Source of the DNA: an uncultured Thermococci archaeon
Lineage (GTDB): Archaea; Methanobacteriota_B; Thermococci; Methanofastidiosales; B48-G16
NCBI GenBank assembly: GCA_964595645.1
Contig: CAZQQT010000007.1
Location: 72,809-136,808, forward strand
Reading direction: 5' to 3'
DNA: 64,000 nt
This document shows positions 1,397 through 17,370 of this stretch, one piece after another. Every line of letters begins with the position of its first letter. Position 1 is the stretch's first letter. The notes beneath the pieces were generated by a model. The model searched no databases and had not been told where the DNA came from. It was given only the letters and a program-made list of their open reading frames with translations. A program made the translations under genes and the position numbers.

Positions 1397-1888
1397 ATGG
1401 CAATTTTTGGACTGATAGCAGTTGGGTTCCTCGGTATCGGCTACTTTCTATACTACTCGCTGAAAGCACTGGCATGGGTTATCTCAACATTTTACAACAC
1501 GTACTCCGCATCCACTAAAGAGAAAACGGAACGGCAGAAACAGAAGTACAGGGACAAAGTCAATGAGGAGTTCGGGAAGACATCCCGACGCAAATCCACG
1601 AGAACACGATCCCACTATAAAAAGACGTATTCATCACACTCATATCATAGTACAAAATCGAGAGTTGCATCACAATCTCATCGTAGTACAAAATCGAGGG
1701 TGGCGAAGGCACTCCATCTCCTTGAAATCTCACGGAAAGCATCCATAAAAGAGATAAAACGTGCTTACAGAAAGAAAGCGAAGAAGTACCATCCCGATAC
1801 AAACGGTGGTCATACAACAAGAAAATTCATCGAACTCACCAACGCGTACAAGCTCCTCCTCACACTTAAAAAACAGGGGGCGATCTAA
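1397..1888 (+). CDS. Membrane-anchored J-domain (DnaJ-like) protein
   Basis: N-terminal TM helix (IFGLIAVGFLGIGYFLYY). C-terminal J domain with HPD motif (IKEIKRAYRKKAKKYHPDTNGG). Basic Ser/Thr/Lys-rich linker containing a tandem STKSRVA repeat. Confidence 0.6.
   Translation: MAIFGLIAVGFLGIGYFLYYSLKALAWVISTFYNTYSASTKEKTERQKQKYRDKVNEEFGKTSRRKSTRTRSHYKKTYSSHSYHSTKSRVASQSHRSTKSRVAKALHLLEISRKASIKEIKRAYRKKAKKYHPDTNGGHTTRKFIELTNAYKLLLTLKKQGAI
1645..1703 (+). repeat. Two tandem ~23-nt direct repeats (agtacaaaatcgag(a/g)g(t)tg(c)) inside the J-domain protein gene, encoding ...HSTKSRVAS.. / ..RSTKSRVAK..
   Basis: Direct visual repeat in the sequence. Confidence 0.5.
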
Positions 1889-2448: not shown

Positions 2449-5430
2449 TTGGATGACGATATCAAATTCAACCTAAATTATTTTGATGGTGGACACACAC
2501 ATCACGTTCTTAATAAAAGGGGTTATAAAGAGATTAAATTGAATCAAGACCCTCAGTTAAAGAGAAAATTTATCAATTGGTGTAAGACTAATGATTTACC
2601 CGAACTGCTTGAAAGAGTAAAAGACCTTGATAAAGGAAAAGAAAGAAAGGATATTATACTCTTAGTACCTCCAAATTACGGTCCGTCCGAAGAATATCAT
2701 TTACTGGGAGCATCCTCGTTTTCGAAGAGATACACTGAAGAAATGAATAGCAGGATAGAAACCACTGGATACATGTACTCGGGTTGGAATTACAGTATTA
2801 AAGAAGAGAAGAAAAAACATCTCTCCGTGCCCTTCCGGTTATATGTAGGTGAGAAGAAAAAGGTAAAGGGCTATTTCCGTGTAGTTGACTTTTGGACTGA
2901 TATTGAAGAAGATAAAGACTTAGAGAAGACATTAAATGATGAAAACTGGAGAGATCATTTTCGTGATGATGAACCTACTATAGATCCTACTCAGTGGAAC
3001 AGTACCCATGAAGAAATGTGGAAAACAAGAACGATCTTCAAATATGACAAAGTCGAAAGATTCTCAGAAGAAAAAGACCTAAGTGAGTTTGAAAATATTG
3101 AAGGCGAAACACCTCAATTCTATCAAAAAGGATTTGACGTAATTTGTGAAAAGAAAGAGGAGGGAAGAAAGATGGATAAAGATATGAATATTATAGGCGT
3201 AGTGGCTAAAGTTGCATGGTCTCATAACAGATGGAAGGGGTTTGATGAGGAGGGATATCGAAAAAGAGAAAATTATAACTATAAATTTGTGAGAATAAGC
3301 GGTCACGCCCATGAATGGTGGGGATTTTATGAAGATTTCGATAAAGATTACTACTATGGACATGTGGCGATGAGTGAAAGAACACCTAAGAAAAAGTTTA
3401 AAGACGCCTTAATACCTGTTATATCATATAACATTAATAATCGGGAGTTCTATCTTGTAGGTTTTTTTGGAAATGCAAAATTTACTGGAGAAAAATATAA
3501 AACAGAAACGAAAATGAAAAAACTACTCTCAGAAGACTGTATTGATAGTTTGCCACAAATTGCTGATAAATTTGATCAGGAGGATTGGAAGGATGCTGCA
3601 GAACGTATGAGAGACTTTATAAAAAACAAAATAAAGTATGACGGGAATATTAAAGCACCGAAAAAATTTTCTACAGTATTTGAAGAGGAAGCATATATTA
3701 AAATCGATCCACAGGAGGATCTAACCGTGGGGAGACTCGGACAGGCTCCCTACATGTACATCGGACATACCGAAACAGTCCCTCCAGAAAATGTTCATAA
3801 GTTACTGCTTAAAGCAAAAGAAAGACACGAGACGATCTTAAAAAATACTCAAGATGTAAATAAGGAGGAAGAAATTGAGGAGATAATTGAAAAAATTGAT
3901 CGTGTGGTAGATAAATACTTTTCCGAAGTGGAAAGAACTGCAGGACCCATAAATTATTACCTTGAAGTCTCTGCAGCGCCTTGGCAGGGTCCGATAGGAA
4001 AAATATTGGAAACAGGAGTAGATAGTAAATACAAAATGATGCAGGAATTAACTCCTGGAGACGTTGTAATTCATTATAGACCAAGCAGAGTAAGAAAGTA
4101 TCCCCAACGATTTGTTGGCTATTCGAAAGTTAAGAAGAGCGCAAAAACATTTAGTAGAGATGAATTGGTGCAATTTTTAAAGAATCGTGACATTTTGAGT
4201 GAAAAGTATAGAGAATTTGCAGAAGAAGGTGTTCTAAGCTATGATAAAGCTTGGATAGTGGAATTAAAAGATTTTAAAGAATTTAAAAATGAGAAAAAAC
4301 CAAGCTACCACACTGTAAAAGATCAACTTGGATTTAAGGTTACTGAAGGCTACCTTCATTCGTTAGATAAAGAAATTGCTGAAGGAATAATTAATCTAAG
4401 CGATCTAAAAGAACCGAACGAGAGAAAGGAAAAATGGAAAGACAAAAAACAAGATCTTGGCTACGAGATAGAGAGAAAATTCACTATCAATGGCCTATTT
4501 TTCCCCGAAGGAGAAAGGGAGACTCTTGAAAAACAGATCACTACGGCAATAAGAAACAGGAAACATATCATTCTCATTGGAGCTCCTGGAACGGGAAAAT
4601 CAAAGCTGGCAAAGGAAATTTGTGAATTCTATGTGGGGAATAAAAACTACATTATGAGTACTGCAACGTCTGACTGGTCAACGTTTGATACGATCGGTGG
4701 GTACCATCCTGACAAAGAAGGAAAACTGAATTTCAAAAGTGGTATATTCTTGCGATGTTTCAGGGACAGTGAAACTCTTAACCCTGAGGATCGATGGTTA
4801 ATAATAGATGAAATAAATCGGGCGGACATAGATAAAGCGTTCGGTTCATTATTCTCAGCCCTTACTGGAGACACCATCACACTGCCATTTGAGGTTGCAG
4901 ATGAACAGATAGAGGTCGTAGGAGATCCAAATGATGACGATGAGATTCAAGGGAACAAATTCATAATCCACCCAGACTGGCGGATTATCGCGACGATGAA
5001 CACCTATGACAAAGCTTCACTCTATGAAATGAGTTACGCATTTATGAGACGGTTTGCGTTTGTTCCTGTAGATGTCCCCAATGAAATTGACGAAGATCTA
5101 ATTCGAGAATATTTAGACATTTGGCATCTTGAAAGAGAGGAAAACGCTGAGTTAGTTGATAAAGTAACGAAGCTGTGGAAAACTATCAACAACTCCAGGA
5201 AAATAGGTCCGGCGATCATTAAAGATATCTATGAGTACCTCACTGAAGAGGATGATCTCACCAGCGCCGTGATCATGTACGTGTTGCCACAGTTTGAGGG
5301 ATTGCCAGAGGACAAAATATGCACCTTTGTGGATGAGTTAGATATTATTGAAGCAAAAGATGAACTCATAGATTTCTGCGTGGATTTCTTTGGAATTGCA
5401 CGAGAAAAATTCAAAAAATCATCTGAGTGA
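2449..5430 (+). CDS. McrB-family AAA+ GTPase with a long N-terminal extension. The specificity subunit of a McrBC-like modification-dependent restriction system.
   Basis: C-terminal third has Walker A (ILIGAPGTGKSKLAKEI) and the McrB-type signature (WLIIDEINRADIDKAFGSLFSAL). The first ~650 aa contain at least one PUA/EVE-like segment (...YYLEVSAAPWQGPIGKIL...GDVVIHYRPSRVRKYPQRFVGYSKV) and a Trp-rich segment (AWSHNRWKG...HEWWGFYEDF). TTG start. Confidence 0.6.
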   Translation: MDDDIKFNLNYFDGGHTHHVLNKRGYKEIKLNQDPQLKRKFINWCKTNDLPELLERVKDLDKGKERKDIILLVPPNYGPSEEYHLLGASSFSKRYTEEMNSRIETTGYMYSGWNYSIKEEKKKHLSVPFRLYVGEKKKVKGYFRVVDFWTDIEEDKDLEKTLNDENWRDHFRDDEPTIDPTQWNSTHEEMWKTRTIFKYDKVERFSEEKDLSEFENIEGETPQFYQKGFDVICEKKEEGRKMDKDMNIIGVVAKVAWSHNRWKGFDEEGYRKRENYNYKFVRISGHAHEWWGFYEDFDKDYYYGHVAMSERTPKKKFKDALIPVISYNINNREFYLVGFFGNAKFTGEKYKTETKMKKLLSEDCIDSLPQIADKFDQEDWKDAAERMRDFIKNKIKYDGNIKAPKKFSTVFEEEAYIKIDPQEDLTVGRLGQAPYMYIGHTETVPPENVHKLLLKAKERHETILKNTQDVNKEEEIEEIIEKIDRVVDKYFSEVERTAGPINYYLEVSAAPWQGPIGKILETGVDSKYKMMQELTPGDVVIHYRPSRVRKYPQRFVGYSKVKKSAKTFSRDELVQFLKNRDILSEKYREFAEEGVLSYDKAWIVELKDFKEFKNEKKPSYHTVKDQLGFKVTEGYLHSLDKEIAEGIINLSDLKEPNERKEKWKDKKQDLGYEIERKFTINGLFFPEGERETLEKQITTAIRNRKHIILIGAPGTGKSKLAKEICEFYVGNKNYIMSTATSDWSTFDTIGGYHPDKEGKLNFKSGIFLRCFRDSETLNPEDRWLIIDEINRADIDKAFGSLFSALTGDTITLPFEVADEQIEVVGDPNDDDEIQGNKFIIHPDWRIIATMNTYDKASLYEMSYAFMRRFAFVPVDVPNEIDEDLIREYLDIWHLEREENAELVDKVTKLWKTINNSRKIGPAIIKDIYEYLTEEDDLTSAVIMYVLPQFEGLPEDKICTFVDELDIIEAKDELIDFCVDFFGIAREKFKKSSE

Positions 5431-6263
5431 AGATAATGAAGGCAGGAGCTAAAACATTATTGGATGATATCGCTGAAGATTTCGTTCAGTATCTCAAAAG
5501 TGGTAATTTAAACATTAAATCGTTTTCTAAAAGGATAGATCCTACCCTCAACATCGATAATATTGAAAAATTGCTGAGGATACACTTTGTACTCACAGAA
5601 CAACGAGGAGAACACGGTGTTGGAGTAATTGATTTTATTGACAACCTCTCTGAAAGGATACGACGAATAAAAACGACGGTGAAAAAGACAAGAACGTTAT
5701 TCAGAGGAAAGGTGCGAGGAAAAATATGTTGGAAAGATACACTGCGGTATCGGTACAACTCAAATCCAAAGGATAGTACTCTTTTCGTCTGTGACAGACG
5801 GGAAAAAAATTACGAAATCTCAGAGAACCTAGTACTGAAAAGACTCCTTCAAATTATCCATGAGATTGTGTATACCGATCTACGAGTCGCGCTTGAAAAA
5901 GAGTACGAGTGGATCGGGGAATGGGCGTCGGAGGAAAAAAACCTAGAGAAAACGTTGAATCGGATATTCTTTAGAAATGTCTATCTGAGAAGAATTGATC
6001 TGACAGACGTGAAAGTCACTAATAGAATGATCAGTAGAGCGAAACGATCGAGACAGCCACTGTACAGAGAAGCAGCTGTGCTCCTCTCGCAGTATAGGGA
6101 GCTGATGAATTACGAGTTTGATCCGGAAGAGGCAAAAAACCTTCTGAAAAATACCTTCATCAACCCGGAGAAAACGGAGGTACTGTTTGAGCTGTACTGG
6201 ATAATTAAAATCATAAAAAAATCACTTTACCGATCCGAAGTTCCGGTTGATCGTTCCCGGTGA
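5427..6263 (+). CDS. McrC-like subunit, N-terminal fragment. Start overlaps the McrB stop.
   Basis: Position immediately 3' of the McrB-like gene with a GTGA overlap. Size and weak McrC-like features. It ends at a TGA that the next ORF (-1 frame) overlaps by 17 nt. Confidence 0.4.
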   Translation: MKIMKAGAKTLLDDIAEDFVQYLKSGNLNIKSFSKRIDPTLNIDNIEKLLRIHFVLTEQRGEHGVGVIDFIDNLSERIRRIKTTVKKTRTLFRGKVRGKICWKDTLRYRYNSNPKDSTLFVCDRREKNYEISENLVLKRLLQIIHEIVYTDLRVALEKEYEWIGEWASEEKNLEKTLNRIFFRNVYLRRIDLTDVKVTNRMISRAKRSRQPLYREAAVLLSQYRELMNYEFDPEEAKNLLKNTFINPEKTEVLFELYWIIKIIKKSLYRSEVPVDRSR

Positions 6264-6807
6264 GAATGTGGTAGCAGAATGGGTATCCGACGACTCTACA
6301 TACAGGATCTACCACGATTCCTGTGGGAGTTTTAAGTTCAAAGAGAGTATTGCATGGCTTAATGTTAATGCACAACTAAAAGACAAAGATAACTATCTTG
6401 GTCGGGAATTGCAAGTGATAGACATGCTGGAAAAAATGACGGGGAAGGGGTCGCAGGACAGTCTGTGGGGTGGCAGACCGGATATCGTACTCGAAAAATA
6501 CGATGAGAACGGTGACATTGTGTCAGTGCTAATAGGTGAGGTTAAATACACGGACAGCAAGAATTACGCGATTCAGGGCCTCAAAGAACTACTCGAATAT
6601 ATCGCATTGATCAAAGAAGGTGAGAACTACAAACTACGCTATGAGGATTTGTTCGAAAATATAGACGCAGTGAAGGGATGTTTATTCCTCGATGCGATCG
6701 CTGACTGGGAGATCGAAGAAGAAAAGAACATCTCAGTAGTGATGTTTGGTGAGGATTCTACCACGTTAAAAAACGTTATAGAGGGAGTGAAACGTGACTC
6801 GCGTTGA
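6247..6807 (+). CDS. McrC-like subunit, C-terminal PD-(D/E)xK nuclease fragment
   Basis: Nuclease core motif (GRPDIVL...VSVLIGEVKY) typical of the McrC catalytic domain. It continues the upstream ORF in another frame (278 + 186 aa, close to a normal McrC length). Confidence 0.45.
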   Translation: MIVPGENVVAEWVSDDSTYRIYHDSCGSFKFKESIAWLNVNAQLKDKDNYLGRELQVIDMLEKMTGKGSQDSLWGGRPDIVLEKYDENGDIVSVLIGEVKYTDSKNYAIQGLKELLEYIALIKEGENYKLRYEDLFENIDAVKGCLFLDAIADWEIEEEKNISVVMFGEDSTTLKNVIEGVKRDSR

Positions 6808-7186
6808 CCGTGCAAAAAACCGAAACATCATTGATATGGCACTCTCGTTTTCTGCGATGACAAGAATCTTTGAGAAAGGATCCACCGAAAAAGTACGGAA
6901 GAAGTTCTACAAGGATATTGACAAATTCTTCAGTATGCACCACGAAGAAGCTTCAACGAAAACAAACTGGACAAAAAAGTACTATATCGTTGCATTTTTA
7001 GAACTCAAGTATCCTCCAATTGATAGCACTAACTACAGAGAGTATGAAGCAGAAATCCAAAACAACATGCACTACCGCCGCGGAGATTTCGAGCGACACG
7101 ATAAAAGTTTTATCCTGAAAGGAACAAAGAACAGCGGGTGGCTTGAGAACCCAATCCGAATCGACGCGGGGGAGACGAGGAACTAA
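6794..7186 (+). CDS. Hypothetical protein (130 aa) in the defence island
   Basis: ORF overlaps the preceding stop. No recognisable motif. Confidence 0.3.
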   Translation: MTRVDRAKNRNIIDMALSFSAMTRIFEKGSTEKVRKKFYKDIDKFFSMHHEEASTKTNWTKKYYIVAFLELKYPPIDSTNYREYEAEIQNNMHYRRGDFERHDKSFILKGTKNSGWLENPIRIDAGETRN

Positions 7187-7441: not shown

Positions 7442-8623
7442 TTGAAGGAAATTCCTATGAATAAAAATCTGGTTCAAAATTTGTATGGCGAATATGAAGA
7501 AAAAATAGATTCAATCATAAAAGAACATGGTGAAGAAGACGGTTTTATAACGGAAGGAAAGATGTGGTGGGACTATTACAAAGAGTTAATAGACGAAACG
7601 TTGGACAAGATTAAAAACGGCGAATTGACAGAAAAAGATGCTAAAAAGTTTTATAAAACTTTTGGATTTGGTCCCAAACTTTACGGCCGCACATTTATCG
7701 AAAATGGGTTATCTAGCATAGAAAAGTTATTTCTCTTCTTAGCCGATGGTGATATTCCTGCGGAAAGAAAAATCGCTGAAGTAGTAGAAGATCCAGAAAG
7801 TGAAAACTATTTTAGAGGCGTAGGTATCAACTTTGTTACTCTCTTCTTAACGACTTTTTTCCCTAAAAAATACGTGCAATGGAATAGGCAAACAGATGGA
7901 GCTTTGGAATTGTTAAAGATCTATCCGGAGAAGGAAAGAGGAGAGAAAAAATCTGAGTTCTATTCAAAAATAAATAGTGTCTGCAAAGAGATCGGTAGAA
8001 CTGTGGATGTCAATTTTTTACCGAAGATTGATAACTTCCTTTACTGTCTAAACAAAGGATATATTGGAACAGAAATAGTTGAACCTGAGTACGAAAAGGA
8101 AGCAAAGAAAAAGGAAGAACTTGAAGAAAAAGAACTGAAAACGGAAGAGGTAAGAACCCATACGAAAATGATGTACTATCTTATAAAAATAGGATTAAAG
8201 AAAAACTATAATGTGTGGGTTGCTAAAAATGACAGAAATAAAGAATATAGGGAAGAAAAATTTTCAGACCTCTGTTTAAGCGAAATACCAAATTTTACAG
8301 GACCCGATACATTAGCAATCGCAAAGTATATAGATGTGATATGGTTTAGAAAAAATACTTTACATCCTGTCCGTTTTTTTGAGATAGAACACACCACAAC
8401 AATTTATTCTGGATTATTGCGATTAAACGATGTTGCAGTGGATTATCCTATTGGCAAAGCAACGATTGTCATTCCGGAAGAAAGGATTAATTTATTTGAA
8501 ACACAGATAGATAGACGAACCTTCAAAGTGGGCACCGATTTATCGGATGTATGTGACTATTTAACTTACGGAGATCTAAAAAAGTGGTATGAAGCAGTAA
8601 ATATTGATTCAAAATACTCATAG
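7442..8623 (+). CDS. Hypothetical protein (393 aa). The C-terminal ~150 aa have possible restriction-endonuclease-like (Hjc/Mrr-type) features.
   Basis: C-terminal segment ...NYNVWVAKNDRN...GPDTLAIAKYIDVIWFRK(x12)FFEIEHTT... resembles a D...(D/E)x(K/H) nuclease core. The N-terminal ~240 aa are unrecognised. Confidence 0.35.
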   Translation: MKEIPMNKNLVQNLYGEYEEKIDSIIKEHGEEDGFITEGKMWWDYYKELIDETLDKIKNGELTEKDAKKFYKTFGFGPKLYGRTFIENGLSSIEKLFLFLADGDIPAERKIAEVVEDPESENYFRGVGINFVTLFLTTFFPKKYVQWNRQTDGALELLKIYPEKERGEKKSEFYSKINSVCKEIGRTVDVNFLPKIDNFLYCLNKGYIGTEIVEPEYEKEAKKKEELEEKELKTEEVRTHTKMMYYLIKIGLKKNYNVWVAKNDRNKEYREEKFSDLCLSEIPNFTGPDTLAIAKYIDVIWFRKNTLHPVRFFEIEHTTTIYSGLLRLNDVAVDYPIGKATIVIPEERINLFETQIDRRTFKVGTDLSDVCDYLTYGDLKKWYEAVNIDSKYS

Positions 8624-8836: not shown

Positions 8837-10363
8837 ATGCAAAAAAAACTAGGAAAAATGACACTTGATAGGCTTGAATCACATTTATGGGAGTCTGCAA
8901 ACATTTTGAGAGGAAGTATCGACTCATCTGACTACAAGAATTATATTTTTGGTCTACTGTTTCTGAAACGGCTGAGTGATGTATTCGAAGAGAAACAAGA
9001 AGAAATCAGGAAAAATCATGGAGAAGAATTTATCGAAGATAGAGACTTCCATGAGTTTTATGTGCCTGAGAGAGCCCGCTGGGACAACATCAAAGAAAAA
9101 ACACAAGACATTGGTGCAGAACTAAACAAAGCATTTGAAGTCTTGGAGGAAGAAAACAGTCTTTTAGAGGGAGTATTAGTCAGCATTGACTATAACGATA
9201 AAGAACGGCTACCTGACAACGTGCTAGAAGAACTCATTCAACATTTCACAACATATGGGTTGGGGAACAAGGATCTGGAGGATCCCGATCTGTTAGGCAG
9301 AGCCTACGAATACCTCATCCGACAGTTTGCCGACGATGCAGGGAAAAAAGGAGGTGAGTTTTACACACCTCGAGGCGTGGTTAAACTGATAGTGGAGATA
9401 CTGGATCCGAAGGAAGGAATGAGAATCTACGACCCCTGTTGCGGATCCGGTGGAATGCTGATATACTCTGCAAAGCATTTAGAAGAGAATGGTCACAGCC
9501 CTTCGGAAATATCGCTGTACGGACAGGAACGGAATCTGAATACCTGGGCCATCTGCAAGATGAACATGTTGCTTCATGGGTTATACGATGCAAAAGTAGA
9601 GAAGGGAGATACCATGCGGGATCCAAAGTTCGTGGAGGAAGGAACATTGCAGCAGTTCGATATTGTGGTCGCAAATCCTATGTGGAACCAGAGTTCGTGG
9701 AGCAAAGAGTACCTCAAAAATGCCGAGCCGTATGGGCGCTTCTCTTATGGACTTCCACCAAAGAACTCGGCGGACTGGGCGTGGATACAACACATGCTGG
9801 CCAGCACACACAAAAAGGGGAAGGTCGGCGTTGTTTTGGATAACGGTGTGCTGTTCAGAAGCAGAAGTGAGGGTAAAATCAGGGAGAAGGTGATAAAAGA
9901 CGATCTCATTGAAGCCGTCATTGCCCTCCCACCAAATCTATTCTACAACACATCGTCTCCGGGAACGATCCTCATTCTCAACAAGGACAAACCTACCGAG
10001 CGAAAAGATAAAGTCATCTTCGTGTATGCCGAGGAGGAATACAGAGAAGGAAGTGCACAGAATTTCTTGGAAGAAGAGCACATCCAGAAGATCGTGGATG
10101 CTATCGAAGATTATGAAGATCAAGAGAGATTCTGCAGAGTCGTTGGATATGAAGAGATCGAGAAGAACGACTTTAATTTAAATGTTCCCAGGTATGTGGA
10201 TACTATTGAGCCGGAGGAACCGATAGATGTGAACGAAGCATGGGCTGAGTTGAAAGAAGTTGAGCAGGAAAGAGACGAGATTACGAGTGAGATGAACGGA
10301 TATCTGGAGGAGATCGGGTATGATTACTCTATGGTTGAGGGAAGTGGTGGGAAAGAAAAATGA
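8837..10363 (+). CDS. hsdM: Type I restriction-modification system, N6-adenine DNA methyltransferase subunit HsdM
   Basis: N-terminal HsdM_N region (LWESANILRGS...YKNYIFGLLFLKRLSD). AdoMet-binding motif I (IYDPCCGSGGML). Catalytic NPMW(N) motif IV (VVANPMWNQ). Confidence 0.9.
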   Translation: MQKKLGKMTLDRLESHLWESANILRGSIDSSDYKNYIFGLLFLKRLSDVFEEKQEEIRKNHGEEFIEDRDFHEFYVPERARWDNIKEKTQDIGAELNKAFEVLEEENSLLEGVLVSIDYNDKERLPDNVLEELIQHFTTYGLGNKDLEDPDLLGRAYEYLIRQFADDAGKKGGEFYTPRGVVKLIVEILDPKEGMRIYDPCCGSGGMLIYSAKHLEENGHSPSEISLYGQERNLNTWAICKMNMLLHGLYDAKVEKGDTMRDPKFVEEGTLQQFDIVVANPMWNQSSWSKEYLKNAEPYGRFSYGLPPKNSADWAWIQHMLASTHKKGKVGVVLDNGVLFRSRSEGKIREKVIKDDLIEAVIALPPNLFYNTSSPGTILILNKDKPTERKDKVIFVYAEEEYREGSAQNFLEEEHIQKIVDAIEDYEDQERFCRVVGYEEIEKNDFNLNVPRYVDTIEPEEPIDVNEAWAELKEVEQERDEITSEMNGYLEEIGYDYSMVEGSGGKEK

Positions 10364-11871
10364 GAATCCTCTTGGATACGAACATATTGATATATCGGGA
10401 ATCAAACCAGATTCTTTCTGAGGACATCCAAGAGCTGACAAAAATACTGAATCGAGGTGACTTTGATATTCTAATTCACCCCGCAACTTTTGATGATATT
10501 AGTAAAGACGGGTATGAAAAAAGAAAAAGGATTATGGAATCTAAGTTCAAAACATATTCTACATTAGAAAAACCTCCGAACCCATTGGAAGATCAAGAAT
10601 TTTTAGATCGCGTTGAATGGTATTCACATCCCGAGGACGAGATTGACAATAAAATTCTTTATGCAGTATGCAGAAATGCAGTTGATTTTTTAATCACTGA
10701 AGATCATGGGATACATCACAATGCTAAGGAGATTGGTATTGATGAACGTGTTCTTCTTGCACAAGACGCTTTGAAATTATTTGAACAAAAGGAAGAAAAA
10801 CCTCCGAATGTACCTCCATCGTTGGAAAAAAATTATGTTTACAATTTGGACATTTCCGATCCTATTTTCGATAGCTTAAAAAGAGATTATCCGGATTTCG
10901 AGGATTGGTTTGAGAAAATATCGAAAGAGGGAAGGAAATGTTATGTTAACCGTAGAAAAGACGGTAAAGTAGGTGCTTTGTTGATATATAAACTGGAAGA
11001 AGAAGATATGACCAACACAAGTCCACCTTTACCATTGAAAAGGAGATTAAAAATATGTACCTTAAAAGTCACTCATGTCGGTTATAAGATAGGAGAACTA
11101 TTCATTAAAACCTCAGTAGACATGGCATTGAAAAAAGGTTGTGAACAAATCTATCTCACACATTTCACAGAACCCGACGATAGATTGGTATCATTGATAA
11201 ACGATTTTGGGTTTTACAAAGGAGCGGTTAAACATTGGGATGATGGTCGAGAAGAAGACATTTTTTTGAAAGAACTATTTGCCGGAGATGACGTAGAACA
11301 ATTATCCCCGCTAGAGATCTCTGAAAAATATTATCCAACATACTATCATGGAAGAAATGTTCGCAAATTTATTGTACCAATAGTCCCAAAGTACCACGAT
11401 AGGCTATTCACCGACTGCGGGGGACGACAAACCTTTTTACATGAACATGCTGGCGAGTTCGTAACGGAGGGAAACACAATAAAAAAAGCTTATTTAAGCC
11501 ATTCAAAAACCGGAATGGTAAGACCAGGCGATATTCTGCTCTTTTATCGTTCTCATGATCAACAAAGAATAACTTCTCTCGGTGTTGTGGAAAAAGTTCA
11601 TGATGAACTTACAAATGCAGGTGAAATAGCCAGTATTGTGGGTAAACGTACTGTCTATTCGTTAAGAGAAATAGAAGAAATGTCAGAAAAAGAAACAAAG
11701 GTAATTTTGTTTAGACATCACTTTCACTTGCCTCTTCCACTAGATTATAAATTCTTGAGGAAACAATCCATAATCAAAGGGCCTACAAGGTCTATAACTA
11801 AAATCGACCACGATAACTATTTAAAAATGGTTGAAAAAGGTGGTATAGATGAACGTTTTACTGTCGATTAA
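10360..11871 (+). CDS. Three-domain fusion inserted in the hsd operon: N-terminal PIN-domain nuclease, central GNAT-like acetyltransferase fold, C-terminal PUA/ASCH-like domain
   Basis: PIN signature (MRILLDTNILIY...DFLITED). GNAT-like block (GALLIYKL...LKICTLKV...GYKIGELFIKTSVDMALKKGCEQIYL). C-terminal PUA-like block (GMVRPGDILLFYRSHDQQRITSLGVVEKV). ATGA overlap with the hsdM stop. Confidence 0.5.
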   Translation: MRILLDTNILIYRESNQILSEDIQELTKILNRGDFDILIHPATFDDISKDGYEKRKRIMESKFKTYSTLEKPPNPLEDQEFLDRVEWYSHPEDEIDNKILYAVCRNAVDFLITEDHGIHHNAKEIGIDERVLLAQDALKLFEQKEEKPPNVPPSLEKNYVYNLDISDPIFDSLKRDYPDFEDWFEKISKEGRKCYVNRRKDGKVGALLIYKLEEEDMTNTSPPLPLKRRLKICTLKVTHVGYKIGELFIKTSVDMALKKGCEQIYLTHFTEPDDRLVSLINDFGFYKGAVKHWDDGREEDIFLKELFAGDDVEQLSPLEISEKYYPTYYHGRNVRKFIVPIVPKYHDRLFTDCGGRQTFLHEHAGEFVTEGNTIKKAYLSHSKTGMVRPGDILLFYRSHDQQRITSLGVVEKVHDELTNAGEIASIVGKRTVYSLREIEEMSEKETKVILFRHHFHLPLPLDYKFLRKQSIIKGPTRSITKIDHDNYLKMVEKGGIDERFTVD

Positions 11872-12253
11872 ACCAAAATATGTTGAAAAGATCGCCGAGG
11901 GTGAGAAGAAACTGGAGTTCAGAAAGGTGATCTTCAAGGACGAGAACAGGCCGGACACCATATACATATATTGCACCTCTCCTGTCAAGAAGATAATCGG
12001 CTATTTCACCACCGGTGAGATCTTCGAGGACGACCCGGCCGAGCTCTGGGACAGGTTCCATAACCTTGCAGGTATAAGTGAAGAGGAGTTCTTCGATTAC
12101 TTCTCGGGAAAGGAAAGAGGATACGCCATCGGTATCGAGGACTTCAACCAGTTCGACAACGCTATCGACCCTTACGAAGTGATCCCGGGATTCACACCAC
12201 CCCAGTCCTTCTGCTATATGAACGACGATCTCCAGAGGTATCACGATGTCTGA
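11849..12253 (+). CDS. ASCH-domain (PUA-like superfamily) protein
   Basis: Highly typical ASCH N-terminus (MNVLLSIKPKYVEKIAEGEKKLEFRK) and core (GYFTTGEIF...PQSF). It overlaps the upstream stop and the hsdS start. Noticeably more GC-rich than the flanking genes. Confidence 0.65.
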   Translation: MNVLLSIKPKYVEKIAEGEKKLEFRKVIFKDENRPDTIYIYCTSPVKKIIGYFTTGEIFEDDPAELWDRFHNLAGISEEEFFDYFSGKERGYAIGIEDFNQFDNAIDPYEVIPGFTPPQSFCYMNDDLQRYHDV

Positions 12254-13568
12254 GTACAAGGAAGTGCAGATCGGGCCCAAGACGGTGGAGATACCTGTGG
12301 AGTGGGATAAAGTTAAAGTTGAAGGTATTTTCGAGATAATTAAAGGGCAAAGTTATAAAAGTAAATATTATGCTGATGAAGAGGATGGGTTTATATTCAT
12401 TAATTTAAAATGTATAAACAAGAAAGGAGGATTTAATAAAGAAGGTATAAAATTTTATCAGGGACCTTTTGCAGAGAAAAATTTTGTTGAACCAGGAAAT
12501 TTGATAATGGCCAATACAGATTTAAACCGTGACGCAGAAGTAGTAGGATATCCTCTTTATGTACCAGAATTTAATAATGAAAAAAAAATAGGAATATCTA
12601 TGGATGTCTCAGTGTTAAGAAAAAAGAACAGTTGTGTAATTGATAAATATTTTTATTATTTATTTAGCAATGAGATTATTCACGGTGCAGTACAAAATTT
12701 TGCTGAAGGATCAACTGTATTACATCTTGATTTAGATTCTGTAAAAAATTTAACAATCCCCCTCCCACCACTCCCCGAACAGCGCCGTATCGCAGAGATC
12801 TTATCTACCGTGGACGATGCCATCCAGAAGACGGATGAGGTCATCGAGAAGGCGGAGAGGTTGAAGAAGGGGCTGATGCAGGACCTGTTGACCAAGGGGA
12901 TAGGGCACGATGAGTTTAAGGAAGTGCAGATCGGGCCGAGATCTATTAAAATCCCCAAAGAATGGGATATTAAGAATTTACAACCGTCCAATGGGATTGT
13001 AAAAAAAGTTACTGATGGATCCCATTACTCACCACCCCAAATAGAAGAGGGTGAATATCTTTACGCAACCGTTACGAACTTTAGCGATAGGGGTATAGAT
13101 TATGGAACATGTAATAAAATAAATGAAGAAGAATATCTTAAGATGGTAGAAGGGGGTAATAAACCTCTGAAAGGAGATGTACTTTTCAGTAAAGATGGGA
13201 CTATTGGAATCACTGATGTATATGAAGATGATGAAGATGTGGTATTACTTTCGTCCATTGCAATCATTAGGCCTATACAAAATCAAGTAAATCCAATTTA
13301 TTTGAAATATTTTCTATCTTCAAAAGAAATCGAACATCAAATACGTTCTTTTAAAAGTGGAACTGCGATTCGCCGTGTAGTTCTTAGAGATATCAAAAAA
13401 TTCAAAATTCCACTACCATCTCTACCCGAACAGCGCCGCATCGCAGAGATTCTATCAAATATCGACAGTAAAATCCAAAAAGAAAAATCCTATAAACAAA
13501 ACCTCCAGAAACTCAAAAAAGGATTGATGCAGGACCTGTTGACAGGAAAAGTGAGGGTGAATACATGA
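12246..13568 (+). CDS. hsdS: Type I R-M specificity subunit HsdS with two target-recognition domains
   Basis: Two-fold internal repeat architecture. Each TRD is preceded by (E/Y)KEVQIGP(K/R) and followed by the conserved coiled-coil LP(P/S)LPEQRRIAEILS...KKGLMQDLLT(K/G). Confidence 0.85.
   Translation: MSEYKEVQIGPKTVEIPVEWDKVKVEGIFEIIKGQSYKSKYYADEEDGFIFINLKCINKKGGFNKEGIKFYQGPFAEKNFVEPGNLIMANTDLNRDAEVVGYPLYVPEFNNEKKIGISMDVSVLRKKNSCVIDKYFYYLFSNEIIHGAVQNFAEGSTVLHLDLDSVKNLTIPLPPLPEQRRIAEILSTVDDAIQKTDEVIEKAERLKKGLMQDLLTKGIGHDEFKEVQIGPRSIKIPKEWDIKNLQPSNGIVKKVTDGSHYSPPQIEEGEYLYATVTNFSDRGIDYGTCNKINEEEYLKMVEGGNKPLKGDVLFSKDGTIGITDVYEDDEDVVLLSSIAIIRPIQNQVNPIYLKYFLSSKEIEHQIRSFKSGTAIRRVVLRDIKKFKIPLPSLPEQRRIAEILSNIDSKIQKEKSYKQNLQKLKKGLMQDLLTGKVRVNT
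12771..12893 (+). repeat. hsdS central conserved region, copy A of an intragenic direct repeat (...ccgaacagcgccgtatcgcagagatc...ctgatgcaggacctgttgac...)
   Basis: Near-identical DNA to 13421..13545. Classic hsdS repeat that enables TRD shuffling. Confidence 0.7.
13421..13545 (+). repeat. hsdS distal conserved region, copy B of the intragenic direct repeat
   Basis: Matches 12771..12893 at DNA level. A second short repeat pair lies at 12249..12292 and 12912..12955 (gag t(a/t)(c/t)aaggaagtgcagatcgggcc). Confidence 0.7.
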
Positions 13569-16500
13569 CACAGGATTGGACTGAGTACCACCTGACGGAG
13601 AAACCAGCATTAGATCTTCTAGAAGAGCTGGGGTATACAGTCTACGATATCAATGAGACCTTTGAACGACCGGAACGAGACTTGTTGCGAGAGGTGCTGT
13701 TACTGAACAACGTACGGTCGGCGATTCAACGAATTAACCCATGGATCTCAGAGAATAACCTCAATAAAGCGGTGAACATGATCCGTCCCACAAGAATCCG
13801 GGCCGCTGGAATGATAGAAGCCAACGAGATCACCTACACCCGACTGGTCAAGTACATCTCAGTTCCTCAGGATCTGGGAAAAGGAAAAAAGAATCAGACG
13901 GTAAAGTACATTGATTTTGAGCATCCTGAAAACAACGAGTTCTTGGCACTGAACCAGTACAAGGTAAAAGGACACGAGAAAATAAAACCGGACATCGTGA
14001 TCTTTGTTAACGGCATTCCCATCGGCGTCATCGAGTGCAAAAACGAGACTACCTGCGATGATCCAGAGGACGATGCCATCGATCAGTTGCGACGGTATCA
14101 GAACATTCGGTACGAGAATGAGAATGAAGGTGCAGAGCAACTGTTTTATCCTAACCAAATACTTGTAGCAGCCTGGCGGGATTCTGCCTCCTCCTGTGCC
14201 ATTGGTGCACCAGCCCGACAGTTCAAAGCGTGGAAGGATCCCTATCCACACACAAAAGAAGAGATTCGATCCGTAGTCGGAAGAAACGTTACCCTCCAAG
14301 ATATACTCCTCTTCTCCCTCTTCAAAAAAGATCGTCTGCTAGATCTCATTCAGAACTTCATCGTGTTTGAACGCGCAGGAAACAAGCTCATCAAAAAACT
14401 GGCGCGGTACCAGCAGTATCGAGCAGTAACCAAAGCTGTCGAACGGATAAAGAACGCAGACACACTGATTGATCGGAGTGGTACTGTCTGGCACACTCAG
14501 GGATCGGGGAAGTCTCTCTCCATGCTCTTTTTGGCCCTCAAACTGCGACGAATGGAAGGACTGGGAAATCCCACACTTCTCGTAGTAACAGACAGAATCG
14601 ATCTCGACGACCAGATCACCGGTACCTTCGAACGGTGCGGATTTCCAAATCCAATCCAAGCGCAAGATACAGACAATCTCAAAGAGTTGCTCAGAAGAAA
14701 CGTCGGAAAAACGATTATGACGACGGTGCACAAATTCCAGGAACGTGTGAAGGAGAAATACCCTGTTCTCACTGAAGATACGAATGTGTTTGTAATGGCC
14801 GACGAGGCACACAGGACACAGTACAAAGACTTGGCGGCAAATATGCGAAGAGCCTTGCCCAACGCCTGCTACTTGGGATTCACGGGGACGCCTATCGACA
14901 AAGAAGAGAGAAGCACACTGCGGACCTTCGGATCCTATATCGACACCTACACCATCGATGAGTCCGTTGACGATGGAATGACGCTCAATATCCTTTACGA
15001 GGGAAGAATCCCTGAGTTACGAGTTGAAGGACGCGATCTCGACGATTTATTCGACAGAATATTCAAAAACTACTCCAACGAAGAGAAGAAAAAAATAAAA
15101 GAGAAGTACGCAACTGAACGAGACATTGCTGAAGCAAAATCCAGAATTGAACGGATATGTCTTGATATCATCGATCATTACGAATCAAAAATATATCCCC
15201 TCAAAGGACAGATAGTAACAGTGAGCAGAGAAGCAGCCGCCAGATACAAGGAAGCAATGGACAGGTTTAACGGACCTGAGTCTGCTGTGATCATCAGCAG
15301 TGATCAGAACGATCCGCCGCTTCTCAAGAAGTACCATACATCTGCTGGTGAACGAAAGCATCTTATTGAAACATTTAAAGATCCGGAAAGTAATCTCTGC
15401 CTCCTCATTGTCTGTGATATGCTGCTGACTGGATTTGACGCACCAGTAGAGCAGGTAATGTATTTAGACAAGCCGCTCAAAGAACATAATCTCCTGCAAG
15501 CGATTGCACGAGTGAACAGACGGTTTGAAGAGAAAAATTATGGTCTTATTGTGGACTACTATGGCGTGTTTGATTACCTCCAAGAAGCATTGGCCGTCTT
15601 CAATAAAAAGGATATAGAAAACGCTGTCACCCCCATCAAGGATGAAAAACCGAGGCTGGAGAGAACGTATAGACAGGTTATGCAGTTTTTTGAAGGAGTG
15701 GATCTTGATGACCTCGATGAGTGCATCCTAACCTTTAAAGACGAAGACAAACGACTGAAGTTCAAACGTGCTTTTAAAGCCTTTGCAAAGAGCATGGATA
15801 TCGTTATGCCCGATCCAATCGCGGATCCGTACCGTGAGGATCTCAAAACACTGGGGAAAATTTACAAAGCGGTGAGAAACCACTACCGTGACAGCTCTTT
15901 GGACATAAAGGGTGTTGGTGGGAAGGTAAAGCGGCTAATAGATGAACATATTCGCGCAACCGACATCAAAATACTCAATGAACCGGTCTCTATTCTTGAC
16001 AAAGAGGAGTTCGATCGTACTGTAGAAGAGCATGAAAATATTGAGACTAAAGCTAGTGAGATGGAACACGCAATCCGAAGTGAGATTAGTGTGAAAATGG
16101 AAGAGAACCCTGTCTTTTACCAATCGCTGAAAGAACGGTTAGAGGAAATTATCGAAAAGAGAGTCCAGGGAAGATTCACCTTTACCAAACAGTTAGAAGA
16201 AATGAGAGAGATAATCCACGAAATTCGAGATGTGAGGACAAAAGCCGAGAAGCTAGGATTGAATGAGCGAGAGTTTGCTCTCTACGAACTGCTCCTCGAC
16301 GAAAGAGAACATGAACGGGTGGAGACAGTGAGTGAGAGTACGGGAGCCTACCATCCTGGTGGTCCTGAACTGCATATTAATAAAAAGGTTAGAGATTTAT
16401 CCAAACAATTAATGGACGACCTTGAAGACATGAGAGTCGTGGATTGGAAGGAAAAGAAAATGATTCTAAAAGAAATGAGAAAAGTGATCAAACTCACGTT

Positions 16501-16579
16501 GAGTGAGTACAAAGAATTCAAGAAAAATCTGGATAGCGTCACAACGAAAGTGATCAAACTCGCGAGGAATATCCTATGA
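13565..16579 (+). CDS. hsdR: Type I R-M restriction subunit HsdR (SF2 helicase/translocase plus N-terminal PD-(D/E)xK nuclease)
   Basis: Nuclease motif (PDIVIFVNGIPIGVIECK). Helicase motif I (TQGSGKSLSM), motif II (DEAH: VMADEAHRTQ) and later motifs (TGFDAP, QAIARVNR). 1004 aa. ATGA overlaps at both ends. Confidence 0.9.
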   Translation: MTQDWTEYHLTEKPALDLLEELGYTVYDINETFERPERDLLREVLLLNNVRSAIQRINPWISENNLNKAVNMIRPTRIRAAGMIEANEITYTRLVKYISVPQDLGKGKKNQTVKYIDFEHPENNEFLALNQYKVKGHEKIKPDIVIFVNGIPIGVIECKNETTCDDPEDDAIDQLRRYQNIRYENENEGAEQLFYPNQILVAAWRDSASSCAIGAPARQFKAWKDPYPHTKEEIRSVVGRNVTLQDILLFSLFKKDRLLDLIQNFIVFERAGNKLIKKLARYQQYRAVTKAVERIKNADTLIDRSGTVWHTQGSGKSLSMLFLALKLRRMEGLGNPTLLVVTDRIDLDDQITGTFERCGFPNPIQAQDTDNLKELLRRNVGKTIMTTVHKFQERVKEKYPVLTEDTNVFVMADEAHRTQYKDLAANMRRALPNACYLGFTGTPIDKEERSTLRTFGSYIDTYTIDESVDDGMTLNILYEGRIPELRVEGRDLDDLFDRIFKNYSNEEKKKIKEKYATERDIAEAKSRIERICLDIIDHYESKIYPLKGQIVTVSREAAARYKEAMDRFNGPESAVIISSDQNDPPLLKKYHTSAGERKHLIETFKDPESNLCLLIVCDMLLTGFDAPVEQVMYLDKPLKEHNLLQAIARVNRRFEEKNYGLIVDYYGVFDYLQEALAVFNKKDIENAVTPIKDEKPRLERTYRQVMQFFEGVDLDDLDECILTFKDEDKRLKFKRAFKAFAKSMDIVMPDPIADPYREDLKTLGKIYKAVRNHYRDSSLDIKGVGGKVKRLIDEHIRATDIKILNEPVSILDKEEFDRTVEEHENIETKASEMEHAIRSEISVKMEENPVFYQSLKERLEEIIEKRVQGRFTFTKQLEEMREIIHEIRDVRTKAEKLGLNEREFALYELLLDEREHERVETVSESTGAYHPGGPELHINKKVRDLSKQLMDDLEDMRVVDWKEKKMILKEMRKVIKLTLSEYKEFKKNLDSVTTKVIKLARNIL

Positions 16580-17313: not shown

Positions 17314-17370
17314 ATAGAGAGAATAGTATAGTAGAAGATTTATAAAGATCATCTGCGAAGAGAGAGGAGG

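What the first reader, a model, noticed from the sequence alone, without database searches (positions are those of the whole stretch)
2449..6807. McrBC-like modification-dependent restriction system with a ~650-aa multi-module McrB N-terminus and a split McrC
The AAA+ core carries the McrB-specific IDEINRA(D/N) signature. The N-terminal region is far longer than in E. coli McrB (~160-aa DNA-binding domain). It contains at least one PUA/EVE-like block (GDVVIHYRPS...FVGYSKV) and a Trp-rich block.

EVE/PUA modules fused to McrB are thought to read modified bases such as 5mC, 5hmC or glucosylated DNA. This suggests a combinatorial modified-DNA sensor.

The partner is a PD-(D/E)xK nuclease (GRPDIVL...IGEVKY) and is split into two ORFs at 6247-6263.
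Basis: partly seen in the sequence, partly recalled or inferred. Interest (0 to 1): 0.75.

Follow-up and report, generated by a model that had tools for sequence, protein, structure and literature searches.

The report
McrBC-like restriction module, frameshifted nuclease
This is a two-gene McrBC-type anti-phage restriction module from an uncultured archaeon: its motor protein carries three unusual sensor modules, only one recognisable, and its nuclease gene is broken by one extra A, so it is an interesting variant of a known system that is probably switched off here.

Summary
Window 2449-5430 encodes a 993-aa McrB-type AAA+ protein. It has Walker A GAPGTGKS, Walker B IIDEINRAD and the NxxD signature MNTYDKAS, and its only solved relatives are McrB.

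Its ~678-aa N-terminus has three shuffled modules:
- **M1 (aa 79-240):** no known relative.
- **M2 (aa 246-493):** the Trp-rich block, with no relative in Pfam, NCBIfam or PDB.
- **M3 (aa 501-652):** an EVE/PUA-like domain. Its family profile hits PDB 6n0s, an McrB N-terminal domain, at E 5e-11.

The partner gene is split by a +1 frameshift at an A7 run (6215-6221). Removing one A gives a 459-aa protein colinear with more than 350 intact ~450-aa homologues. No McrC sequence model detects this family. A confident structure model of the closest intact homologue matches only McrC structures at E <= 0.001 (Foldseek E 2e-6, full length), and the catalytic RPD...EVK motif is intact. In 56 of 60 genomes examined, the gene lies directly downstream of an mcrB-like gene.

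Long multi-module N-termini and EVE fusions are common in this subfamily, so the design is not unique. Modification dependence is inferred, not shown. I rate it a new variant of a known kind, of moderate interest, and probably inactive in this genome.

The parts
2449..5430 (+). mcrB-like gene, 993 aa (TTG start as called; identical to database protein P0121)
   Evidence: ORF list. Pfam AAA_5 E 1e-18. NCBIfam McrB PRK11331 local match E 1e-18. PDB McrB chains 6hz4_A, 6ut6_A, 7vsr_A and 6ut3_A are the only sequence hits.
2449..2682 (+). N-terminal leader, aa 1-78, unique to this protein
   Evidence: No similarity to the ~100-aa leaders of P0122, P0123 or P0126, and no upstream remnant of them in any frame.
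2683..3168 (+). Module M1, aa 79-240 (YHLLGAS...FRVVDFWTD...TRTIFKYDKVERF); fold and function unknown
   Evidence: Full-length copies only in P0121, P0122, P0123 and P0126; a partial M1-like stretch in the fragment P0222, where it abuts a Walker A motif. The other search stretches reaching the M1 part of the profile (P0176, P0241) were not M1 on inspection. No PDB hit with the profile. No similarity to EVE, M2 or M3. AF2 pLDDT 25-30.
3184..3927 (+). Module M2, aa 246-493: Trp-rich beta core (AWSHNRWKGFD, AHEWWGFYE) followed by a helical extension; uncharacterised domain
   Evidence: About 70 of 120 hits in the exhaustive search of 1.84 billion representatives carry it, nearly always N-terminal to a McrB-type AAA+ domain. 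No Pfam, NCBIfam or PDB relative. Nearly invariant W257, W262, E289, W291, F293.
3949..4404 (+). Module M3, aa 501-652: EVE/PUA-like domain of the type in PDB 6n0s (GDVVIHYRPS, FVGYSKV, WIVELKDFKEF)
   Evidence: Family profile A5 hits PDB 6n0s_A at E 5e-11 over the whole domain. 8 of 24 members weakly hit Pfam EVE (best 2.6e-4; the window copy 0.1). hhalign against McrB-fused EVE profile: probability 64%, E 6.5e-5. The window copy alone gives no PDB hit.
4483..5409 (+). McrB-type AAA+ (GTPase) core, aa 679-987: Walker A 4579-4602, Walker B 4801-4827, NxxD signature MNTYDKAS 4996-5019
   Evidence: 76% identical to the AAA+ part of P0122.
5427..6263 (+). mcrC-like gene, 5' fragment: N-terminal (McrB-engaging) domain. 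GTG 5427 overlaps the mcrB stop by 4 nt; the ATG at 5436 is the start used in public annotation and matches homologue N-termini. The last 15 codons are out of frame.
   Evidence: 78% identical to P0001 residues 1-260.
6215..6221 (+). A7 homopolymer: site of the +1 frameshift (intact relatives are one base shorter here)
   Evidence: Frame analysis. The conceptual A6 repair is colinear with homologues through the junction. The window has 40 nt and L005 has 39 nt between conserved flanks.
6247..6807 (+). mcrC-like gene, 3' fragment: complete PD-(D/E)xK nuclease domain (frame open from 6217). Catalytic RPD at 6469-6498 and E-V-K at 6532-6552.

Best explanation
This is a McrBC-type (Type IV-like) restriction module inside a defence island.

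**Inferred mechanism, from the E. coli and Thermococcus gammatolerans McrBC paradigm.** The N-terminal modules of the 993-aa McrB-like protein select the target nucleic acid. Its AAA+ core assembles into a nucleotide-dependent hexamer. The partner protein inserts its N-terminal domain into the ring, which stimulates hydrolysis and translocation. Its C-terminal PD-(D/E)xK domain then cuts the DNA.

**Shown here**
- The McrB-type motifs are present and McrB is the only solved relative.
- One N-terminal module (M3) belongs to the EVE/PUA-like reader superfamily.
- Two further modules (M1, M2) are rare. M2 and M3 sit almost only in front of McrB-type AAA+ domains, in varying order, so they behave as shuffled specificity modules. 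M1 is too rare (four full-length copies) to judge.
- The partner belongs to a large unannotated family with a full-length McrC-like fold and intact catalytic residues. It is encoded directly after mcrB-like genes in archaea and Bacillota.

**State in this genome.** The partner gene carries one extra A in an A7 run, exactly at the boundary between its two domains. The motor-binding domain and the nuclease domain therefore fall in different frames. The most likely consequence is a recently inactivated or off-state system.
For: - **McrB identity:**. The NxxD signature is as defined in PMC11090510.
- **M3:** EVE/PUA-like by profile.
- **M2 and M3 placement:** almost always upstream of McrB-type AAA+ domains, in orders M2-M3, M3-M2 or alone.
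- **Repaired partner:** removing one A gives a protein colinear with more than 350 homologues of ~450 aa. Invariant RPD...EVK.
- **Gene order:** mcrB-like gene then partner in 56 of 60 genome loci, and also in L003, L004, L005 and L006.
- **Frameshift:** seen identically in a second assembly with 0 mismatches over 4752 nt. Both halves are still 70-78% identical to the nearest homologue.
- **Split position:** at the end of the last N-domain helix and before the first nuclease strand.
- **Island context:** a Type I RM operon follows in the same orientation. notes this association for the E. coli-type branch.
Against: - No McrC sequence model detects the partner. Profile-profile comparison with a 73-sequence McrC alignment is only suggestive, at E 0.014 and probability 3%.
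- The window's own M3 is a divergent member. It lacks the family's LW(S/A)P motif and does not hit 6n0s or reach the Pfam EVE threshold on its own.
- Nothing shows what ligand any of the three modules binds.
- The two assemblies that agree on A7 may derive from the same reads.
Confidence: 0.7

Rival explanations
1. The frameshift is a sequencing or assembly artefact in a homopolymer, and the real genome carries an intact, active 456/459-aa mcrC-like gene.
For: The lesion is a single base in an A7 run. Both halves are as well conserved as expected for a working gene, and all catalytic and invariant residues are intact.
Against: The NCBI-derived window and the independent Logan assembly of SRR7048220 are identical over 4752 nt including A7, and the contig is reported from 2 samples. 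Seven-base homopolymers are rarely miscalled by short-read platforms (general knowledge). The sequencing platform was not checked.
Confidence: 0.2
2. The A7 tract is a functional switch. This could be slipped-strand phase variation between ON (A6) and OFF (A7). Alternatively, transcriptional or ribosomal slippage could yield some full-length protein. A third option is a working two-piece McrC made by re-initiation at TTG 6247.
For: The split falls precisely between the N-domain and the nuclease domain, so both pieces are complete folding units. ORF3 has its own potential start, overlapping the ORF2 stop by 17 nt. There is no further decay in either half. McrC homologues that lack a nuclease and use separately encoded nucleases are described in PMC11090510.
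Against: Intact relatives do not conserve an A-run at this site: AAAGGATAAC, ATCAAAGAC and ATAAAGCAA in three, and only A6 in L004. No Shine-Dalgarno-like sequence precedes TTG 6247 (read). No other split member was seen among the listed homologues.
Confidence: 0.1
3. The module is McrBC-like in machinery but not a modified-DNA restriction system. On this reading the N-terminal modules recognise RNA, unmodified DNA structures or another ligand.
For: [quoted passage not shown] 2020, reference 225 of PMC12707154). RNA targeting has been proposed for other McrBC branches (PMC11090510). M1 and M2 have no known ligand.
Against: The GTPase has the NxxD motif, not the NxD motif of the proposed RNA-targeting branch. 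The nuclease is a PD-(D/E)xK with intact catalytic residues. Canonical EVE domains are fused to most McrBs of this subfamily. The locus sits next to a Type I RM system.
Confidence: 0.15
4. The ATPase is a MoxR or dynein-type AAA+ protein unrelated to restriction.
For: Pfam's best model is the generic AAA_5 'dynein-related' family, with faint bpMoxR and AAA_3 hits.
Against: The McrB-specific NxxD signature is present. McrB is the best NCBIfam hit by 15 orders of magnitude, and the only PDB sequence hits are McrB. The gene is coupled to a McrC-fold nuclease.
Confidence: 0.02

Closest known systems
E. coli K-12 McrBC (PDB 6hz4, 6ut6, 7vsr)
   Same: Two-gene mcrB-mcrC order with overlapping stop and start codons. 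AAA+ core with GxxGxGK[ST], DEINRA and the MNxxD(R/K)(S/A) signature. Partner with an N-terminal domain plus a C-terminal PD-(D/E)xK nuclease and a full-length McrC-like fold. Adjacent Type I RM system.
   Different: The N-terminus is about 678 aa with three modules, where E. coli has one ~160-aa DUF3578 domain. The partner has no sequence-level similarity to McrC models. The partner gene is frameshifted here.
Archaeal McrB proteins with PUA-superfamily N-terminal domains: PDB 6n0s (assigned to Staphylothermus marinus McrB from my memory of Hosford et al. 2020) and Thermococcus gammatolerans McrB YTH-like domain (6p0f, 6p0g)
   Same: M3 belongs to a family whose profile matches the 6n0s sequence end to end at E 5e-11. 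It lies directly upstream of the AAA+ core, as in those proteins. The poor N-terminal model still gives ASCH and T. gammatolerans McrB N-terminal domain as its best Foldseek matches.
   Different: Those proteins carry a single reader domain, whereas this one has two further modules of unknown fold upstream. The window's M3 has lost the family's LW(S/A)P motif.
EVE-McrB fusions and the McrBC census of Bell et al. (BMC Biol 2020, PMC7641849; eLife 2024, PMC11090510)
   Same: Modular specificity domains are fused to NxxD-type McrB GTPases. Canonical EVE is fused to about 32 of 56 McrBs of this subfamily, sometimes in tandem or inserted into the GTPase domain.
   Different: The window protein lacks the canonical EVE that its closest relative P0122 has between M3 and the AAA+ core. 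M1 and M2 match no curated family model (Pfam; M2 also NCBIfam) or solved structure. Whether this partner family was in their McrC set (defined by DUF2357) could not be checked.
DUF2357 + PDDEXK_7 McrC-like nucleases
   Same: They play the same role. P0123 has the same M1-M2-M3 N-terminus on a different McrB AAA+ clade, and it is followed by a 544-aa DUF2357 + PDDEXK_7 protein.
   Different: The window's partner family gives no DUF2357 or PDDEXK_7 hit. hhalign aligns only the catalytic PD...(D/E)xK strand pair, at probability 2%.

Membership tests
McrB (AAA+ GTPase subunit of McrBC) | AAA+ core with Walker A GxxGxGK[ST] and Walker B DE(I/M)NR | tested here: met
   GAPGTGKS at aa 711-718 and IIDEINRAD at aa 785-793. 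Pfam AAA_5 E 1e-18.
McrB (AAA+ GTPase subunit of McrBC) | McrB-specific Nx(xx)D signature motif (MNxxDRS in E. coli) | tested here: met
   MNTYDKAS at aa 850-857, the NxxD type. It aligns to E. coli MNTADRS in the PDB alignment. Motif definition from PMC11090510.
McrB (AAA+ GTPase subunit of McrBC) | Closer to McrB than to other AAA+ clades | tested here: met
   NCBIfam McrB E 1e-18 against GvpN 6e-4. The bit score of 67 is far below the E. coli equivalog cut-off of 637, so this is a family-level match, not orthology. The only PDB sequence hits are McrB.
McrB (AAA+ GTPase subunit of McrBC) | GTP-dependent hexamerisation and McrC-stimulated GTPase activity | not testable with these tools
   Needs biochemistry.
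McrC (nuclease subunit) | Sequence membership in Pfam McrBC (PF10117) or DUF2357 (PF09823) + PDDEXK_7 (PF04411) | tested here: not met
   No hit for either fragment, the repaired protein or 24 homologues at E <= 1. No NCBIfam hit. No PDB sequence-profile hit. hhalign against McrC alignments gives E 0.014-0.076 and probability <= 3%.
McrC (nuclease subunit) | Two-domain McrC fold (N-terminal McrB-engaging domain plus C-terminal nuclease) | tested here: met
McrC (nuclease subunit) | Catalytic PD-(D/E)xK residues present | tested here: met
   R350, P351, D352, E371, V372 and K373 (repaired-protein numbering) are invariant across 24 aligned members, including the window sequence.
McrC (nuclease subunit) | Encoded immediately downstream of mcrB | tested here: met
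   Window: 4-nt overlap. 56 of 60 genome loci have a DE[ILMV]NR + NxxD gene ending at the partner's start. Also L003-L006.
McrC (nuclease subunit) | Single intact polypeptide | tested here: not met
   A +1 frameshift at A7 6215-6221 separates the N-domain from the nuclease domain.
EVE / PUA-like modified-base reader (module M3) | Match to Pfam EVE (PF01878) at gathering threshold | tested here: not met
   The window's M3 scores E 0.1 and 13 bits against a cut-off of 23. 8 of 24 family members give weak hits, best 2.6e-4.
EVE / PUA-like modified-base reader (module M3) | Profile-level homology to a solved PUA-superfamily domain | tested here: met
   Family profile against 6n0s_A: E 5e-11 over profile positions 2-146. 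hhalign against McrB-fused EVE profile: probability 64%, E 6.5e-5 over 92 columns. That 6n0s has a PUA-like fold rests on my memory of the paper cited.
EVE / PUA-like modified-base reader (module M3) | Binding pocket for a modified base | not tested
   No reliable model exists (pLDDT 50-70 in this region). The window copy lacks the family's conserved LW(S/A)P motif.
EVE / PUA-like reader (modules M1 and M2) | Any detectable similarity to EVE, ASCH, YTH or PUA families | tested here: not met
   Pfam, NCBIfam and PDB profile searches were negative. hhalign against EVE and M3 gives probability <= 1%. Fold-level testing failed because the model was poor.

The most novel reading that the evidence does not exclude
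M1 and M2 are new folds, or unrecognisably diverged forms, of nucleic-acid modification readers that evolved specifically as McrB specificity modules. M2 has an invariant Trp/Phe cluster (W257, W262, W291, F293). On this reading the M1-M2-M3 array lets one motor recognise several different marks. A less likely addition is that the A7 tract at the exact domain boundary of the nuclease gene works as an on/off switch for the system.
Probability: 0.2. Interest if true: 0.6.

Novelty: new variant of a known kind. Interest (0 to 1): 0.4.

Why it matters
McrBC systems are a major class of modification-dependent defence, and their N-terminal reader domains have been a source of tools for mapping DNA modifications. 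Three things here are worth knowing.

- **An unannotated McrC family.** More than 350 members in archaea and Bacillota are invisible to Pfam, NCBIfam and PADLOC, yet have a full-length McrC fold and are always paired with mcrB. Defence-system annotation pipelines probably under-count these systems.
- **Two rare, uncharacterised modules.** M2 and M3 occur almost only in front of McrB-type motors, so M2 is a candidate new reader domain; M1 is too rare to judge. M2 has about 70 representatives among 1.84 billion proteins, and M1 only four full-length copies.
- **A one-base frameshift at the nuclease domain boundary.** It is a clean natural example of how such toxic systems are silenced.

None of this changes the known McrBC mechanism.

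Tried and rejected
- **AF2 on the N-terminus.** Modelling the 661-aa N-terminus with the only five homologues available gave pLDDT 49.6. I used its Foldseek matches (ASCH E 0.055, T. gammatolerans McrB N-terminal domain) only as weak corroboration.
- **Searches for N-terminus relatives.** Word-indexed homology searches with the N-terminus, as a single sequence and as a profile, found only 5-6 proteins. The exhaustive HMMER search was needed to find more.
- **Sequence-level McrC tests.** Pfam, NCBIfam and PDB-profile searches were negative, and hhalign against single sequences and a 73-sequence McrC alignment was inconclusive. There is a recurrent but statistically weak motif match, VRGRIxW...C..E..YDIxENLVLK against VRGRlDv...C.yeEHTaDieeNQIL.
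- **Unavailable library.** The afdb50 fold library was not available.
- **Module-against-module and module-against-EVE hhalign.** M1 and M2 gave nothing.
- **Window M3 alone against PDB.** This gave only noise.
- **Literature checks that failed.** The Hosford 2020 paper on the S. marinus McrB N-terminal domain is not held, and a search for '6N0S' found nothing. The organism and fold of 6n0s therefore rest on my memory plus the reference title.
- **Source organism.** Cluster look-up returned no names, and the window contains no tRNA or Rfam hits.
- **Second frameshift.** I considered and rejected the idea that ORF 6794-7186 hides another frameshifted gene. Only its first ~50 aa match the relative's third gene, and nothing further matches in any frame.

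Full report
**1. What is in the sequence**

The + strand of window 2449-6807 carries three consecutive ORFs.
- 2449-5430: 993 aa.
- 5427-6263: 278 aa. The ATG at 5436 gives the 275-aa product found in public annotation.
- 6247-6807: 186 aa.

The first two overlap by 4 nt. The last two lie in different reading frames and overlap by 17 nt.

**2. The ATPase is McrB-type**

- Pfam gives AAA_5 (E 1e-18), with only faint hits to other AAA clades.
- NCBIfam's best model is E. coli McrB (local match E 1e-18, profile positions 173-393). The next AAA-type model, GvpN, scores 6e-4.
- The only solved structures detectable by sequence are E. coli McrB (6hz4, 6ut6, 7vsr; E ~2e-16) and Thermococcus gammatolerans McrB (6ut3; E 4e-10). 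The alignment pairs IIDEINRAD with IIDEINRAN and MNTYDKAS with MNTADRS.
- The signature is therefore the NxxD type that defines canonical McrB GTPases (PMC11090510).

**3. The N-terminal 678 residues are three modules**

Only five or six proteins among 5.8 billion share this region by word-indexed search. An exhaustive HMMER search of 1.84 billion cluster representatives found 120. Alignment of the relatives and a local domain scan define the modules.

*Where the modules occur.*
- M1 is aa 79-240, M2 is aa 246-493 and M3 is aa 501-652.
- M2 and M3 occur independently and in either order: M2-M3, M3-M2, M2 alone or M3 alone. They almost always sit N-terminal to a McrB-type AAA+ domain.
- M1 was found full-length in only four proteins, plus a partial M1-like stretch in the fragment P0222, where it abuts a Walker A motif.
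- The full M1-M2-M3 array exists only in the window protein, P0122 and P0123.
- P0123 carries the array on a different McrB AAA+ clade and pairs it with a DUF2357 + PDDEXK_7 nuclease. The modules therefore move between McrBC lineages, as specificity cassettes would.

- A 24-sequence profile hits PDB 6n0s_A at E 5e-11 across the entire domain. That entry is 'ATPase ... AAA_5', 181 aa. To my knowledge it is the Staphylothermus marinus McrB N-terminal domain, described as PUA-like (reference title).
- Eight of 24 members weakly hit Pfam EVE.
- A profile-profile comparison with canonical EVE domains fused to McrBs of this subfamily gives probability 64% and E 6.5e-5.
- The window copy is a divergent member. 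Alone it reaches neither 6n0s nor the EVE threshold (E 0.1). It has GKILETGV where the family has GK.LW(S/A)P.

*M2.* This is the 'Trp-rich block'.
- Its nearly invariant residues are W257, W262, V281, E289, W291, F293, S326, G338, K405 and S408.
- It has no relative in Pfam, NCBIfam or PDB.
- It shows no profile similarity to EVE or M3.

*M1.* It is equally orphan.

*Structure prediction.* The AF2 model of the N-terminus was too poor to use, with pLDDT 49.6 from a five-sequence alignment. Its best Foldseek matches were an ASCH domain and the T. gammatolerans McrB N-terminal domain, both in the PUA superfamily. I count this only as weak corroboration.

**4. The partner is a frameshifted, divergent McrC**

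*The lesion.*
- The second frame is open from 6217 and the first frame stops at 6263. The only homopolymer in that interval is A7 at 6215-6221.
- Deleting one A gives a 459-aa protein that aligns without a break to more than 350 homologues of ~440-460 aa. The closest are 75% and 64% identical at 99% coverage. The junction reads ...LFELYWIIKIIKNHFTDPKFRLIVPGE... against ...LFELYWVIKIIKDNFENPKFRLIVPGE....
- At DNA level the window has 40 nt where the closest relative has 39, between identical flanks.
- The same A7 allele is present in an independent Logan assembly, with 0 mismatches over 4752 nt, reported from two samples.
- Both halves remain 78% and 70% identical to the nearest homologue. The lesion is therefore recent, or not real.
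- In the model of the intact homologue the break falls after the last helix of the N-terminal domain (H247-263) and before the first strand of the nuclease domain (E278). ORF3 thus contains the whole nuclease domain.

*Is it McrC?*
- At sequence level the answer is no. There are no Pfam McrBC, DUF2357 or PDDEXK_7 hits, no NCBIfam hits and no PDB profile hit. Profile-profile matches to McrC alignments are weak, though they repeatedly pick the same motif.
- The catalytic RPD352...E371-V-K373 motif is invariant.
- By genomic context the answer is also yes. In 56 of 60 genome loci with enough upstream sequence, the gene directly upstream has DE[ILMV]NR, and 55 also match the NxxD pattern. These proteins are 421-1341 aa long.
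- The family occurs in Halobacteria, Thermoplasmata, Methanoregula, Asgard archaea, Bacillaceae and others.

I therefore treat it as a structurally and contextually bona fide McrC. It is a remote homologue that current sequence models miss.

**5. How unusual is the architecture?**

- Within this same subfamily, about 32 of 56 McrBs carry a canonical EVE domain just before the AAA+ core, and three have tandem EVE-EVE.
- Several are 1200-1340 aa long, with hundreds of unannotated N-terminal residues.
- Some M2- or M3-bearing proteins have an EVE inserted inside the GTPase domain. Bell et al. describe such insertions.
- The closest relative, P0122, is M1-M2-M3-EVE-AAA+. The window protein lacks that EVE.
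- EVE-McrB fusions are the commonest EVE architecture (PMC11090510).

What is new is the identity of M1 and M2 and the unannotated McrC family, not the principle.

**6. Context**

The module heads a defence island in one orientation.
- A short gene remnant lies at 6794-7186.
- An NmeDI_C / type II REase-like ORF lies at 7442-8623.
- A Type I RM operon follows: hsdM 8837-10363, hsdS 12246-13568 and hsdR 13565-16579.
- The PADLOC candidate pair PDC-M11A/B is inserted between hsdM and hsdS.
- A YgjP-like peptidase and RadC come next.

Co-oriented Type I RM is a noted associate of the E. coli-type McrBC branch. The closest partner homologue, on L006, is likewise followed by hsdM. Neighbouring genes and the nearest homologues point to an uncultured euryarchaeon.

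**7. Mechanism and verdict**

*Shown:* the motifs, the folds, the gene coupling, the module shuffling and the frameshift.

*Inferred from the McrBC paradigm:*
- recognition of modified bases in foreign DNA by the N-terminal modules;
- nucleotide-dependent hexamer formation;
- activation by insertion of the partner's N-domain;
- translocation and PD-(D/E)xK cleavage.

Which nucleic acid, and which modification if any, is recognised remains open. In this genome the extra A should yield an N-domain-only product (263 native residues plus 15 out of frame). A separate nuclease domain would be made only if translation restarts at TTG 6247. The simplest reading is a recently silenced system. Sequencing error (about 0.2) and a functional switch or split (about 0.1) remain open, and read-level allele counts would separate them.

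Overall this is a real McrBC-type system and a new variant of a known kind. It has two candidate new specificity domains and a McrC family that annotation tools miss. Interest is moderate, at 0.4.

Noticed in passing
window 6794-7186 (+): A 130-aa ORF overlaps the end of the nuclease fragment. Only its first ~50 aa (63% identity) match the gene that follows the mcrC-like gene in the closest relative (L005 2035-2430). The rest matches in no frame. It looks like the stump of a third gene cut by a rearrangement near 6950.
   Followed up: partly
window 7442-8623 (+): A 393-aa ORF sits between the McrBC-like pair and the Type I RM operon with no adjacent methyltransferase of its own. It has a PADLOC type II REase hit (E 2e-10) and a precomputed Pfam NmeDI_C hit.
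   Followed up: no
window 10360-12253 (+): The PADLOC candidate defence pair PDC-M11A (503 aa, PIN-like N-terminus, E 5e-160) and PDC-M11B (134 aa, ASCH/PUA-like, E 2e-48) is inserted between hsdM (8837-10363) and hsdS (12246-13568). Stop and start codons overlap on both sides, so it appears embedded in the Type I RM operon.
   Followed up: no
window 13565-18081 (+): hsdR (1004 aa) is followed by a YgjP-like metallopeptidase (16576-17313) and a RadC/JAB protein (17371-18081), which extends the defence island.
   Followed up: no
window 1397-1888 (+): A small protein has a hydrophobic N-terminus, a basic Ser/Lys/Arg-rich middle with a direct repeat (HSTKSRVA...RSTKSRVA) and a C-terminal DnaJ J-domain. 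It lies just upstream of the island, next to an Lrp/AsnC-type regulator (592-1158).
   Followed up: no
loci L020, L030, L056 (McrB-like genes upstream of the partner family): Haloarchaeal McrBs of this subfamily carry two canonical EVE domains in tandem before the AAA+ core, so tandem reader modules recur in this lineage.
   Followed up: partly
proteins P0147, P0134, P0201, P0145, P0144, P0182, P0192: In these M2- or M3-bearing McrB-like proteins an EVE domain is inserted inside the AAA+ domain, between the Walker A and Walker B regions. This matches the 'insertions in the GTPase domain' noted by Bell et al.
   Followed up: partly
window 3994-4017 (aa 516-523 of the McrB-like protein): The window's M3 and its closest relative P0122 have replaced the family's conserved GK.LW(S/A)P motif with GKILETGV and GKILVTIA. 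This may alter or abolish ligand binding in this copy.
   Followed up: no
locus L004 7610-9294: In one genome a second, canonical McrBC remnant (a McrB_lid fragment plus a PF10117 McrC) lies immediately downstream of the divergent mcrB/mcrC-like pair. The two McrC types therefore coexist side by side.
   Followed up: no
window 1-64000: There are no tRNA genes (ARAGORN) and no Rfam family at gathering threshold anywhere in the 64-kb window.
   Followed up: yes
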